This document shows, piece after piece, positions 3,350 to 27,782 of a stretch of 34,039 bases of DNA. The notes under the pieces are model-generated. The model had not been told where the DNA came from and searched no databases. It saw nothing but the letters and a program-made list of their open reading frames with translations. The position numbers and the translations under genes are program-made. Positions within the stretch are counted from its first letter, which is position 1. Each line of letters opens with the position of its first letter. The stretch comes from a virus (Duplodnaviria; Caudoviricetes): the IMG/VR virus record IMGVR_UViG_3300012863_000021, positions 1-34,039 of that record; one strand, given 5' to 3'.

Positions 3350-3616
3350 ATGAAGCCGTCAGCGGTCGTCCCCCGGATCGAGCACGCCAAGCTCGACGAG
3401 CTCGCGGCGAGCGGCCCGCGCCTCCCGCTGAACGGCCAGGAGCTCACCACGCACCTTCAGGTTAATCGGGTCGCCCGGCCCAAGATCCGGTCGAAGAGTC
3501 GCAATGAGCGCCCCCTCGCGGATCACCGCTTCGTGGAGCCGCCCGACGGCAGCGTCAGCAGCGTTCGCGTCCATGTTCGTACCCCGTCCTCGTCGACGCT
3601 GGTCGGCCTGGCATGA
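3350..3616 (+). CDS. Hypothetical protein (competes with the antisense ORF 3359-3574)
   Basis: AGGAG upstream and stop overlapping the primase ATG, but atypical codon usage. Confidence 0.35.
   Translation: MKPSAVVPRIEHAKLDELAASGPRLPLNGQELTTHLQVNRVARPKIRSKSRNERPLADHRFVEPPDGSVSSVRVHVRTPSSSTLVGLA
3359..3574 (-). CDS. Small antisense hypothetical protein (71 aa, helical)
   Basis: GAGGA/GGGG upstream of the ATG, protein-like amphipathic composition, locally lower GC. Confidence 0.45.
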   Translation of the reverse strand: MDANAADAAVGRLHEAVIREGALIATLRPDLGPGDPINLKVRGELLAVQREARAARRELVELGVLDPGDDR

Positions 3617-6225
3617 GCGCCGTGCTCGGCGCCGCCCTCGATCTGCTCGAGCACGGCTACTCGATCATCCCGATCCGCCCAGACCGTAGCAAGGTCCCCG
3701 CCCTGCCCTCCTGGAAGCGGTACACCGCCGAGCGTGCGACGGCCGACGACCTGCACGCGTGGTTCGCCGACGACCAGCACGACCTCGGCGTCGTCCAGGG
3801 CACCGTGTCGGGGCACGCCGAGCTCACCGAGCTCGAGGGCCGCGCCGTCGCCGCGCTCCCCGACCTCAAGGCCCTCGCGCACGACACCGGCCTCGGCGAC
3901 CTGTGGGACCTCGTCACCACCGGGTGGGTCGAGATGTCCCCCTCCGGCGGGCTGCACTTCCACTACCGCCTCACCGACGGGCCCGTGCCCGGCAACACCA
4001 AGCTCGCACGCCGGCCCGCCACCCCCGACGAACTCGCCGCCAACCCCGGCGACAAGGTGAAGGTCCTCGCCGAGACCCGCGGCGAAGGCGGACAGGTCGT
4101 CGTCGCCCCCTCCCGCCACCACGCCACCGGCCGCCCCTGGGCGCGACTGCTCGGCGGACCCGCCACCGCGCCGACGATCACCCGCGAGCAGCGCGACGCG
4201 TTCCACGCCGTCCTGCGCACCCTCAACGCCCAGCCCGAGCCGCCCACGCCCGCCACGACCACGCCGAGCACCCCGCGCACCTTCGGCGACGGCATCACCC
4301 CCGGCGACGACTACGAGAACAAGACCGACTGGGCCGACATCCTCACCCCCCACGGCTGGCAGCTCGTCACCCAGCGCGGCCGCACACGGTACTGGCTGCG
4401 CCCCGGCAAGCCCCTCGGGTCCGGGTTCTCCGCCACCACCGGGCACGCCGACGACCGCGACCGTCTCTACGTCTTCACGACGAGCACGGACTTCGACGCC
4501 GAGGTGCCGTACACGAAGCTCGGGGCCCTGGCCGTGCTCGAGCACGGCGGGGACCACTCGGCGGCCGCCAAGGCCCTGCACGCCGACGGGTACGGGCAGC
4601 GCCCCGAGCAGACCCGCCCCCAGCACGCCACCGGCGATGACCTCGCCGGCCTCATCGCCCCCACCCACCAGGAGACCCCGTGGCCGACGACACCTGCGAC
4701 TGCTTCCCCGACCACCCCGACGGCCGCTGCACCTGCGACGGCTGCTGGGCCTGCGACGGCCACGTCCTCGACTGCACCTGCGACATCGCCTGGGACTGCC
4801 AGCACCGCCTCGGGGCCTAGCGAGCCGGCCACCTACACCGAGACCGACGACGGCAACGCCCTACGCCTCGTCGACACCCACGGCCACCACGTCCGCTACG
4901 TCCCCCAACGCGGCCAGTGGCTCACCTGGACCGACCACCGCTGGACCTGGGACGAAGCCGGACACGTCCACGAGCTCGCACGCGACATCGCCCGCAACCT
5001 GCCCACCCACGACCGCACCGCCGAACGCCACCGCAAGACCACCCTGTCCCGCCGCGGCGTCGAAGCCATGGTCGCCCTCGCCCGCACCGACACCCGCACC
5101 ACCGTCCACCTGCGCGACCTCGACGCCCGACCCTACGAGCTCAACACCCCCGCCGGCGTCGTCAACCTCCGCACCGGGACACTGTCCCACCCCGAACCCG
5201 CCGCCCTGCACACCCGCTCCACCGCCGTCGCACCCGCACCCGCAGGCACCCCACACCCCCTGTGGGACAAGTTCCTCGCCGACACCTTCGCCGGCGACCC
5301 CGCCCTGACCACCTACCTGCAACGCCTCCTCGGCGTCTCCCTCGTCGGCACCGTCCTCGAACAACTCCTGCCGTTCGCGCACGGCCTGGGCGCCAACGGC
5401 AAGACCACCCTCCTCGGCGTCGTACAGCGCCTCATCGGCATCGGCGACGACGGGTACTCCATCAGCGCACCCGCCGAGATGCTCCTGGCCACCCACCAGC
5501 AAGGCCACCCCACCGAGATCGCCCGGCTCGCCGGCGCCCGCCTCGTCGTCACCTCCGAGCTCGAGGACGGGCAACGCTTCGCCGAAGCCCGGATCAAGCA
5601 GCTCACCGGTCGCGACGTGATCAGCGGCCGGTTCATGCGCCAGGACTGGTTCTCGTTCGTCCCCACCCACACCCTGTGGCTGCTCGCCAACCACCAGCCC
5701 GCCGTCAAGGCCGGCGGGCCCGCGTTCTGGCGGCGCCTGCGACTCCTGCCGTTCGAGCACACCGTCCCCCCCGAGGCACGCATCGCCGACCTTGAAGACC
5801 GGCTCGTCGACGACGAAGGCCCGGCCATCCTTGCCTGGCTCATCACCGGCGCCCACGACTACTTCACCCACGGCCTGGCCGAACCCGCGTCCGTGCGCAC
5901 CGCCACCGACACGTACGCCGCCGACCAGGACACCGTCGCCCGGTTCGTCGCCGAGGAATGCGCCACCGGCGACCCCAACGCCCAGCACCTGCAGGTCCGC
6001 GTCGCCGTCATCCGCGCCGCCTACGAACGCTGGTGCCGCACCGAAGGCGAGGAGCCCGTCTCCCCGAAGTCCCTCACCCAGCAGCTGCGCGCCCGCTACG
6101 GCGTCATCTCCGAACGCGACTCCGCCGCCCGCCTGTACTCCGGGATCCGCCTCAACGATGTGTCACGCGACGACACCGAACCGTCACGCACCGAGGCCCG
6201 GTGGCAGCAGGACGAGGGCTGGTGA
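3613..6225 (+). CDS. Bifunctional primase-polymerase / P4-D5 family SF3 helicase
   Basis: N-terminal prim-pol motifs (SPSGGLHFHY, ETRGEGGQVVVAPS); Walker A GLGANGKTT; IKQLTGRDVISGRFMRQDWF; FWRRLRLLPF. Confidence 0.93.
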   Translation: MSAVLGAALDLLEHGYSIIPIRPDRSKVPALPSWKRYTAERATADDLHAWFADDQHDLGVVQGTVSGHAELTELEGRAVAALPDLKALAHDTGLGDLWDLVTTGWVEMSPSGGLHFHYRLTDGPVPGNTKLARRPATPDELAANPGDKVKVLAETRGEGGQVVVAPSRHHATGRPWARLLGGPATAPTITREQRDAFHAVLRTLNAQPEPPTPATTTPSTPRTFGDGITPGDDYENKTDWADILTPHGWQLVTQRGRTRYWLRPGKPLGSGFSATTGHADDRDRLYVFTTSTDFDAEVPYTKLGALAVLEHGGDHSAAAKALHADGYGQRPEQTRPQHATGDDLAGLIAPTHQETPWPTTPATASPTTPTAAAPATAAGPATATSSTAPATSPGTASTASGPSEPATYTETDDGNALRLVDTHGHHVRYVPQRGQWLTWTDHRWTWDEAGHVHELARDIARNLPTHDRTAERHRKTTLSRRGVEAMVALARTDTRTTVHLRDLDARPYELNTPAGVVNLRTGTLSHPEPAALHTRSTAVAPAPAGTPHPLWDKFLADTFAGDPALTTYLQRLLGVSLVGTVLEQLLPFAHGLGANGKTTLLGVVQRLIGIGDDGYSISAPAEMLLATHQQGHPTEIARLAGARLVVTSELEDGQRFAEARIKQLTGRDVISGRFMRQDWFSFVPTHTLWLLANHQPAVKAGGPAFWRRLRLLPFEHTVPPEARIADLEDRLVDDEGPAILAWLITGAHDYFTHGLAEPASVRTATDTYAADQDTVARFVAEECATGDPNAQHLQVRVAVIRAAYERWCRTEGEEPVSPKSLTQQLRARYGVISERDSAARLYSGIRLNDVSRDDTEPSRTEARWQQDEGW
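4680..4820 (+). CDS. Overprinted 46-aa Cys-rich protein (MADDTCDCFPDHPDGRCTCDGCWACDGHVLDCTCDIAWDCQHRLGA) in an alternative frame of the primase linker
   Basis: AGGAG at 4670-4674, GTG at 4680, TAG at 4818-4820. Every codon ends in G or C in this frame. 9 Cys and 3 His. Confidence 0.6.
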   Translation: MADDTCDCFPDHPDGRCTCDGCWACDGHVLDCTCDIAWDCQHRLGA

Positions 6226-6430
6226 GCACCCGATGACGGTTCGACCCGACACATGTGTCACACCCGCCGCGACACATCGCCCGAGCATCCCCGCAGGTCA
6301 TGACACATATGACACGTGTTCCCCACATCACCTCATGACGAATGACGGGTACCCCTCTGTTTGTACGCATCACGCGGGCGCGCAAGGGGTACAAACAGCC
6401 TGGGCCGCGCATCCGTCACAACCGTCACGG
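6155..6430. other. Putative phage replication origin (TGAC(A/G)/(T/C)GTCA iterons around a central inverted repeat)
   Basis: Many TGACAC/TGACGG/CCGTCA/GTGTCA copies. Inverted repeat CTGTTTGTAC 6357-6366 / GTACAAACAG 6389-6398. Lower GC. Immediately after the primase-helicase. Confidence 0.6.
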
Positions 6431-27095: not shown

Positions 27096-27638
27096 ATGGG
27101 GCCCGCTCTCGGAGACCCGCGACTCCCAAAGGCGTTCTGGGACAAGGTCGACCTCGACCATGTCACCGGGTGCTGGAAATGGCAAGCGCGCACGAATAGC
27201 GGCGGATACGGTTCGCTCAATATCGACGGCCAAAGCCTTTACGCCCACCGCCTCGCCTACGCGACACTCGTGGCTCCCATAGGTGAGCGACTGGTTATTG
27301 ATCACCTATGCCGCAACCCCCGGTGCGTCAATCCAGCACATCTAGAACCTGTACCCACAGGAGAAAACATCCGCCGGGGATTCAAGGGTTACGCCATCCG
27401 GTCAAACATCTGCGCACAGGGTCATGACACAACCCGGACCGGCGTTCGGATCGATCGACGCGGAAGCGGCCAGGGTCGTGACTGCCTCGCATGCCATCGA
27501 CAGCGTGCCCGAGATCAGCATGCCGCGATCCGTGCGGCATCGGTAGCACTAGGTGTATCACAGGCGGAATACACAAGGGCATACGGATATTCCACACGAA
27601 CGGCAATCGCAATCGTGACGCAAGCCAAAGAAGGGTGA
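27096..27638 (+). CDS. Free-standing HNH homing endonuclease
   Basis: CWKW...GYG...YAHRLAY...IDHLCRNPRCVNPAHLEPV..GEN; C-terminal CxxGH/CxxC; markedly lower GC. Confidence 0.92.
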   Translation: MGPALGDPRLPKAFWDKVDLDHVTGCWKWQARTNSGGYGSLNIDGQSLYAHRLAYATLVAPIGERLVIDHLCRNPRCVNPAHLEPVPTGENIRRGFKGYAIRSNICAQGHDTTRTGVRIDRRGSGQGRDCLACHRQRARDQHAAIRAASVALGVSQAEYTRAYGYSTRTAIAIVTQAKEG

Positions 27639-27644
27639 CCTTCT

Positions 27645-27782
27645 ATGTGGATTACGTGTGCATTGTGCGGGGCGCTCGTCGCCGACGTGCCCCTGCACGC
27701 CAACCACCACGAGGTCGCCGTCGGTGACGTCGTCGGCCAGCAGACCCCACCGCCCGACACGATCCCCCAGGAGGGCCCCTGA
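27645..27782 (+). CDS. Small CxxC protein (MWITCALCGALVAD..., 45 aa)
   Basis: ATG at 27645 after AAGGGTG; TGATG coupling to the next gene. Confidence 0.6.
   Translation: MWITCALCGALVADVPLHANHHEVAVGDVVGQQTPPPDTIPQEGP

What the first reader, a model, noticed from the sequence alone, without database searches (positions are those of the whole stretch)
4670..4820. Hidden overprinted Cys-rich (metallothionein-like) gene inside the primase-helicase linker
Seen: the apparent low-complexity linker (WPTTPATASPTTPTAAAP...) has many A/T-ending codons, unlike the rest of the gene. The alternative frame has AGGAG, a GTG 5 nt later and 46 codons that all end in G or C. It encodes MADDTCDCFPDHPDGRCTCDGCWACDGHVLDCTCDIAWDCQHRLGA with CxC/CxxC clusters. 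It is below the ORF-track cutoff. Inference: a real small metal-binding gene nested in the linker without breaking the primase frame, or a captured gene that became the linker.
Basis: partly seen in the sequence, partly recalled or inferred. Interest (0 to 1): 0.72.

Follow-up and report, generated by a model that had tools for sequence, protein, structure and literature searches.

The report
Swappable gene inside phage primase linker
The linker of this phage's primase-helicase gene also encodes, in a shifted reading frame, a 46-residue cysteine-rich protein whose relatives are ordinary stand-alone genes in other phages, and related phages carry seven unrelated families of small genes between the same start and stop sites, so the linker likely serves as an exchangeable slot for small accessory genes, which are predicted but not yet shown to be translated.

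Summary
Observation confirmed: AGGAG 4670-74, GTG 4680, 46 codons all ending in G/C, TAG 4818-20, in frame +2 of an unbroken 870-aa prim-pol/D5-helicase gene. The peptide belongs to an unnamed family (111 clusters at 50% identity) that is mostly free-standing, e.g. mycobacteriophage Omega gp57 and Minerva gp159. The larger finding: 14 of 92 related linkers hold a nested ORF in the same frame, starting at the primase's Trp codon behind a Shine-Dalgarno site and stopping just before the helicase domain. These ORFs form seven unrelated Cys/His-rich families. Near-identical primases carry different cargo, with breakpoints at the start and stop. Both frames show constraint. Likely mechanism: C-ending codons read one base off give a stop-free Pro/Thr/Ala/Ser linker, so captured small genes cost little and are swapped by recombination in the conserved flanks. 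'Metallothionein' is not supported; a zinc-cluster mini-protein is more likely. No expression data; 2 of 14 copies have a damaged start or stop. Precedents: RSF1010 mobB, comS, the ShiLan out-of-frame HNH. New variant of a known kind.

The parts
3613..6225 (+). Host gene: 870-aa prim-pol / P4-D5-type primase-helicase
   Evidence: D5_N E 3e-31, DUF5906; PHROG polymerase/primase; TIGR01613; precomputed PF09250
4597..4830 (+). Inter-domain linker (78 aa, 72% P/T/A/S); residues 328-412 predicted as low-confidence coil
   Evidence: weak: alignment of 8, and residues 610-719 are also low
4670..4674 (+). Shine-Dalgarno site AGGAG of the nested gene (-7.4 kcal/mol with a recalled anti-SD motif)
4680..4820 (+). 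Nested 46-aa Cys-rich gene (family A, core CxCxxCxxCxGx4CxCD[IV]xW), frame +2; its GTG plus the next G make the primase Trp codon; TAG at 4818-4820
4858..5289 (+). D5_N domain, start of the helicase half; no in-frame start codon between the linker and this domain in the window

Best explanation
The linker of this phage primase-helicase holds a second reading frame with its own ribosome-binding site, start and stop, occupied here by a member of a widespread small cysteine-rich protein family and in related phages by six other unrelated small genes, so it likely acts as an exchangeable slot whose cargo is predicted to be translated by internal initiation on the early replication transcript. Shown: the anatomy, the family membership, the shared frame, start and stop, the different cargos between near-identical flanks, and constraint on both frames. 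Inferred: (1) In these high-GC phages most codons end in C. Read one base off, that C is the middle base of a primase codon, which gives Pro/Thr/Ala/Ser and no stop, so a captured small gene becomes a flexible linker almost by itself. (2) The start (ATG/GTG followed by G, read as Trp) and the stop (T-GA, read across a Glu/Asp codon) are built into conserved primase codons. Recombination in or at these flanks swaps cargos. (3) The slot favours short Cys/His/Asp-rich, metal-stapled peptides poor in Glu/Gln/Lys/Trp. (4) The window's peptide most likely folds round 2-3 zinc ions and acts as an early accessory protein on a host or phage partner, not on the primase itself (about 55-60%).
For: Family: 111 clusters at 50% identity. 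17 of 19 IMG/VR loci lie outside a primase; the other 2 are nested in this primase family. Annotated Omega gp57 and Minerva gp159. Slot: a uniform rule (start in linker, 30-70 codons, stop near the helicase boundary) finds 12 of 92 linkers in frame +2, and two near-misses were added by eye. All 12 start ATG/GTG+G. Cys is 75 of 536 residues against 46 of 3663 in the +2 frame of 76 other linkers. Anti-SD pairing has median -6.7 against -1.7 kcal/mol for 174 out-of-frame ATG/GTG, p 1e-6. Seven families by pairwise shuffle test. Swapping: L013 vs L028 DNA identity is 96% upstream, 60% in the cargo, 91% downstream; window vs L028 is 79/92/80%. L005, P0119 and P0120 have 94-97% identical flanks and three different linkers. 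An AU test rejects one clade for six family-A carriers, p 6e-56. Selection on the nested frame: among 4 nested copies, 0 of 12 family-conserved core columns vary against 6 of 11 variable ones, Fisher p 0.005. Relatives in other runs have ATG in place of GTG at 4680. Selection on the primase frame: only 1 of 11, 1 of 9 and 5 of 33 substitutions fall on the nested third position, and C-ending codons number 498 against 455 expected, z 5.0. Cheap nesting: the shifted frame is stop-free in 7 of 15 free-standing copies and in 31 of 64 46-codon blocks of eight window ORFs.
Against: No transcript, ribosome or protein data. L028 has CGA where the stop should be (reads on for 584 codons) and L152 has ATC in place of ATG: 2 of 14 look damaged, or are assembly errors. 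RBS is weak in L010, L011 and L150 (-1.8 to -3.2). Free-standing relatives are firm only for family A. They are weak for E (PHROG E 1e-4) and B (E 0.004) and were not found for C, D, G, H, so some cargos could have arisen in place. The uniform rule also gave 3 chance ORFs in frame +1. The loci share ancestry, so p-values treat related sequences as independent. The column test is partly circular: Cys/Gly/Trp columns were fixed by the pattern used, though the nested copies were found through the primase. The C-ending excess comes mostly from family A and E and is absent in L152, L170 and L230. The tree is a quick one, and the clade holding all nested rows has weak support (77). The AF2 model of the peptide is uninformative (pLDDT 54).
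Confidence: 0.8

Rival explanations
1. Relic capture: small genes recombined into the linker, were tolerated as spacer, and are no longer expressed or useful.
For: L028 lacks the stop, L152 lacks ATG. Sister primases without a nested ORF exist (L011 vs P0128, L013 vs P0122), so the cargo is dispensable. No expression data.
Against: 12 of 14 keep start and stop. T at primase third positions (Cys/Trp codons) persists although the gene is 94% G/C there. Variation is confined to family-variable columns. The window has TAG one codon before the usual TGA site, which reads CGA here.
Confidence: 0.1
2. The peptide is expressed and is a metallothionein-like metal buffer or donor.
For: 9 Cys and 3 His in 46 aa, with CxC and CxxC motifs.
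Against: No match in Pfam, NCBIfam, PHROGs or PDB. Invariant Trp, Gly, Asp and fixed spacing. The module is often fused to unrelated phage proteins. It sits among early and replication genes.
Confidence: 0.12
3. Ribosomal frameshifting joins the frames: -1 from the primase into the cargo (truncated primase with a Zn tail), or +1 at the cargo stop into the helicase.
For: The frames are geometrically compatible, and an internal SD lies just upstream.
Against: No X XXY YYZ heptamer in 12 of 14 linkers, the window included. The codon before the stop differs among loci. No RNA structure signal (z -0.42). The start codon and SD spacing are those of initiation.
Confidence: 0.04
4. Selfish homing or self-splicing element like the ShiLan insertion.
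For: Same frame (+2), in-frame stop-free reading, patchy distribution (PMC11855218).
Against: Cargos are 40-57 aa with no nuclease match and are unrelated to each other. No Rfam match. The phage's only detected HNH gene is 22 kb away.
Confidence: 0.04

Closest known systems
RSF1010 mobB inside mobA/repB (PMC2200642; passages read)
   Same: A small gene in another frame inside a two-domain replication protein whose one domain is a primase.
   Different: mobB is, as far as I recall, one fixed partner of MobA. Here the host is a prim-pol/D5 helicase and the guest is one of seven unrelated, swapped cargos.
[quoted passage not shown]
   Same: Actinophage; insertion stop-free in the host frame; real gene in the third frame; patchy distribution; a similar Pacc40 insert has free-standing relatives.
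   Different: ShiLan is a 195-aa nuclease thought to home, with no detectable RBS, in a non-essential gene. Here: 40-57 aa, no nuclease, SD present, many cargos at one site of a replication gene.
comS in srfAB (Bacillus subtilis) and rpmH in rnpA (Thermus) (named in bioRxiv 10.1101/520783; passages read)
   Same: Same-strand out-of-frame internal initiation of a short protein.
   Different: These are shown experimentally and, from my own knowledge, are single fixed pairs. Translation here is unshown and the cargo varies.
Hepatitis B polymerase spacer over the surface gene; apple stem grooving virus linker (PMC8227390; section 8 and passages read)
   Same: An inter-domain linker of a replication protein is the shifted reading of another gene.
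   Different: Eukaryotic viruses, one overlap each, no exchange of the embedded gene described in what I read.
Rz1 in Rz; T7 gene 18.7 in 18.5 (PMC4283147 passage); T7 gene 4.1 in the primase-helicase gene 4 (recalled; search found no paper)
   Same: Fully nested small phage genes in a shifted frame.
   Different: Rz/Rz1 are a fixed interacting pair; nothing I saw describes cargo exchange.

Membership tests
Bacterial metallothionein (SmtA/BmtA, MymT type) | Short, Cys/His-rich with CxC/CxxC | tested here: met
   9 Cys, 3 His in 46 aa
Bacterial metallothionein (SmtA/BmtA, MymT type) | Match to a metallothionein profile or solved structure | tested here: not met
   no Pfam or NCBIfam family at E<=1; PDB profile search gave only E about 6 hits
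Bacterial metallothionein (SmtA/BmtA, MymT type) | Few aromatic residues (recalled criterion) | tested here: not met
   two Trp, one invariant and one in 76% of 90 family cores
Bacterial metallothionein (SmtA/BmtA, MymT type) | Multi-ion metal binding, metal-induced expression | not testable with these tools
   needs bench work
Nested out-of-frame gene (mobB/comS/Rz1 kind) | ORF wholly inside an intact host ORF, other frame | tested here: met
Nested out-of-frame gene (mobB/comS/Rz1 kind) | Own conserved initiation signals | tested here: met
   (13 of 14 with ATG/GTG; SD weak in 3)
Nested out-of-frame gene (mobB/comS/Rz1 kind) | Selection on both frames | tested here: met
   few, related sequences
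Nested out-of-frame gene (mobB/comS/Rz1 kind) | Protein made in vivo | not testable with these tools
   needs ribosome profiling or MS
De novo overprinted gene | No homologue outside the overlap | tested here: not met
   free-standing homologues, (family A; open for cargos C, D, G, H)
Out-of-frame homing endonuclease insertion (ShiLan type) | Encodes an HNH or other nuclease | tested here: not met
   40-57 aa, no nuclease profile
Self-splicing intron | Intron covariance match or strong RNA structure | tested here: not met
   Rfam none at E<=1; folding z -0.42
Phage/plasmid P4-family primase-helicase (host gene) | D5_N and primase C-terminal SF3 helicase domains | tested here: met

The most novel reading that the evidence does not exclude
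The primase-helicase linker is a maintained expression cassette: a fixed internal RBS, start and stop written into conserved primase codons, through which phages sample and trade a pool of small zinc-binding accessory genes (host-takeover or counter-defence factors) at almost no cost in length, with codon bias making each new cargo its own linker. If so, 'low-complexity PTAS linkers' in high-GC phage proteins are a general, unannotated reservoir of mobile genes.
Probability: 0.55. Interest if true: 0.85.

Novelty: new variant of a known kind. Interest (0 to 1): 0.73.

Why it matters
Nested genes in bacteria and phages are usually fixed pairs. Here one site takes unrelated cargos between constant signals, which gives a natural experiment on how overlapping genes arise by capture rather than de novo, and a simple codon-level reason why it is cheap in GC-rich genomes. 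It predicts that annotators miss small genes in PTAS-rich linkers and gives a protein-level signature to find them (Trp followed by 40-60 P/T/A/S residues and a drop in GC3). It also defines an unnamed, widespread actinophage Cys-cluster family (111 clusters) with members in cultured phages (Omega gp57, Minerva gp159) that can be tested directly.

Tried and rejected
AF2 of the peptide with 58 sequences: pLDDT 54, so no fold search was run. ESM Atlas: best 0.87 (window peptide) and 0.86 (L005 cargo), unnamed clusters, leads only. PDB profile search: nothing. Pfam/NCBIfam/PHROG: nothing for family A. No RNA holder listed among 13 sequencing runs, which says nothing on expression. tblastn of cargos against annotated phages: B only E 0.5-0.8; H, D, E, C, G none. 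IMG/VR scans for cargos H, B, C returned only the nested copies. Protein search for cargo E: no candidate. Searches used off-frame coordinates for L036, L068, L152 or L170; those rows are void and were redone, except NCBIfam, which was not repeated for those four. One mis-framed row (4830-6225) was dropped. Genome sweeps added little: 13 of 337, 1 of 78 and 8 of 401 genomes matched, one new nested locus. Separate translation of the helicase half: no in-frame start in the window's linker. Intron, homing and frameshift readings were rejected as above. No complex prediction was run, since I do not claim that the peptide binds the primase. Literature: nine searches found no description of this slot or this family; most subscription papers and bioRxiv supplements are not covered, and PhagesDB pham notes could not be seen.

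Full report
Setting. The window is a 34-kb, 73% G+C tailed phage record with terminase, portal, capsid, tail, tape-measure and endolysin genes. The closest named relatives of its primase lie in Cellulomonas, Sanguibacter, Timonella, Populibacterium and Demequina genomes, so the host is likely an actinomycete of that group (inference). The gene 3613-6225 encodes an 870-aa prim-pol/D5-type primase-helicase, in an early region with an exonuclease-like and a RusA-like gene.

Observation. The primase's own third positions fall to 31 of 48 G/C over the overlap against 770 of 821 elsewhere. The 46/46 figure alone is weak, since any P/T/A/S linker has C in the middle of its codons; but the run is 49 codons long here and at most 20 in 78 linkers without a nested ORF.

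The peptide is a member of a real family. tblastn finds it in 16 records of cluster J mycobacteriophages at E 3e-8 to 8e-7, annotated as Omega gp57 and Minerva gp159 and unannotated in Bobby and Yeet. A profile search gives 111 clusters at 50% identity, many with the module fused to unrelated small proteins. Of 19 IMG/VR loci, 17 lie outside a primase and 2 are nested in this primase family (in a few of the 17 another frame is open for 200-570 codons, which I did not check for a gene). The core is CxCxxCxxCxGx4CxCD[IV]xW. No Pfam, NCBIfam, PHROG or PDB family matches. So this is capture of an existing gene, not de novo overprinting, unless the family began in the linker and escaped; its wide free-standing spread makes that unlikely (inference).

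The site is a slot. From viral, genome and metagenome collections I extracted 94 distinct linkers and scored 92 (L071 is out of frame, L125 has an 891-nt insert). One rule (start inside the linker, 30-70 codons, stop near the helicase boundary) gave 12 ORFs in frame +2 and 3 in frame +1; the latter lack high GC3, Cys or an SD and look like chance. Two more +2 cases were added by eye: L028 (stop reads CGA) and L152 (start reads ATC). All 12 clean cases begin ATG/GTG followed by G, which the primase reads as Trp, behind a purine-rich site and a C-rich spacer, and end 1-16 nt before the helicase boundary; 11 end in TGA read across a Glu/Asp codon, the window in TAG one codon earlier. Anti-SD pairing (recalled motif) has median -6.7 kcal/mol against -1.7 for 174 out-of-frame starts in the same genes. 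Nested linkers are 207-267 nt; the median of the others is about 140. The 14 peptides form seven families with no significant cross-similarity apart from two isolated one-way borderline scores: A (window, L011, L028, L150), B (L005), C (L010, L036, L170), D (L012), E (L013), G (L068, L069), H (L152, L230). All carry Cys/His motifs (2-9 Cys). Relatives in four other public runs align through the linker at 80% or more, two with ATG in place of GTG.

Cargo moves. L013 (E) and L028 (A) are 96% identical upstream, 60% in the cargo and 91% downstream; the window and L028 show the reverse, 79/92/80%. L005, P0119 and P0120 have 94-97% identical flanks and three different linkers; L011 (A) and P0128 (no signature) are 93-95% identical. 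In trees of the flanks with the linker removed, nested rows fall in one weakly supported group of 46 of 82 rows, mixed with cargo-free rows. Holding six family-A carriers together is rejected (33 rows, quick LG+G4 tree, p-AU 6e-56; L150 left out as too short). Recombination between the two flanks also occurs (e.g. P0132/P0136 78% and 99%) and blurs the tree. Direction and order of events are not established.

Both frames are constrained. In four nested family-A copies, none of 12 core columns conserved in free-standing members varies, while 6 of 11 variable ones do (Fisher p 0.005, partly circular). The T of each Cys codon sits at a primase wobble position that is otherwise 94% G/C. Conversely, substitutions avoid the nested third position (1 of 11, 1 of 9, 5 of 33; less so in families C and H, 13 of 44 and 17 of 47), and nested codons end in C more often than the host gene's usage predicts (498 vs 455, z 5.0, mostly families A and E), as expected if the primase keeps its linker P/T/A/S-rich.

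Mechanism. Shown: the anatomy, family, slot, exchange and constraint above. Inferred: with most codons ending in C, the shifted frame is often open and linker-like. It is stop-free in 7 of 15 free-standing family-A copies and in 31 of 64 46-codon blocks of eight window ORFs, at 43-73% P/T/A/S. A small gene recombined between the prim-pol and helicase domains therefore supplies its own linker, provided its second codon starts with G (ATG-A would put TGA in the primase frame). Once RBS, start and stop are fixed in primase codons, cargos can be replaced by recombination at those short shared boundaries or passed on through the long homologous flanks. Peptides rich in Cys, His and Asp and poor in Glu, Gln, Lys and Trp (3-7 per cargo) fit this filter best, which would explain why all cargos look metal-stapled. 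The cargo would be made by internal initiation on the early transcript. For function I favour a small Zn-cluster protein acting on a host or phage partner (55-60%): unrelated cargos and free-standing copies argue against a role tied to the primase, and free-standing copies sit among early and replication genes. A metallothionein-like role gets 12%, a silent relic 10%, frameshifting and homing 4% each. AF2 gave no usable model; the linker is predicted coil, weakly.

Against. No expression evidence. Two of 14 copies look damaged. Free-standing relatives are weak for B and E and not found for C, D, G, H, though short divergent peptides are easily missed. The statistics treat related loci as independent.

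Comparison and novelty. Closest are RSF1010 mobB inside mobA/repB (PMC2200642, passages), the ShiLan out-of-frame HNH in an actinophage methylase (PMC11855218, parts 1-4 of 6), comS and rpmH (bioRxiv 10.1101/520783, passages) and the hepatitis B spacer (PMC8227390, section 8). I also read passages of bioRxiv 10.1101/2025.01.02.630785 (out-of-frame nucleases in inteins) and PMC4283147 (Rz1). None of what I read describes several unrelated non-nuclease cargos at one nested site, and nine searches found no report of this slot or family. Earlier unchecked notes of this scan report nested genes in other primase linkers, one with a similar slot idea; they are leads, not support, and no look-alike sequence was indexed. 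Verdict: real nested gene, new variant of a known kind, interest 0.73.

Noticed in passing
L125:891-nt linker region (IMG/VR locus): A related primase carries an in-frame insert of about 220 aa that ends in ...SHN before a Thr and has a LAGLIDADG-like stretch; it looks like an intein in the primase C-terminal module.
   Followed up: no
P0232 (protein only): 143-aa linker with the Trp + PTAS signature, about twice the usual length; may hold one long or two nested genes.
   Followed up: no
L028:3532-3672 and L152:2375-2512: Nested ORFs with a lost stop (CGA, 584-codon read-through) and an ATC start; decay, non-canonical start or assembly error.
   Followed up: partly
L002:2479-2630 and L003:2486-2611: Family-A genes in mycobacteriophages Bobby and Yeet are intact but not annotated in GenBank.
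   Followed up: partly
L040:2993-3120: Free-standing family-A gene in a replication module, about 1.4 kb upstream of a related prim-pol gene: a possible donor arrangement.
   Followed up: partly
window 27096-27638: Free-standing HNH endonuclease gene in the tail region.
   Followed up: no
window 6226-6425: Lower-GC stretch right after the primase gene with repeated GTGTCAC/GACAC-like words, a candidate replication origin (seen).
   Followed up: no
window 27645-27782: Another 45-aa ORF with CxxC and a His cluster, GC3 0.89, before a tail-region gene.
   Followed up: no
L068 and L070: The same primase linker with cargo G occurs twice on one Timonella contig, about 40 kb apart.
   Followed up: no
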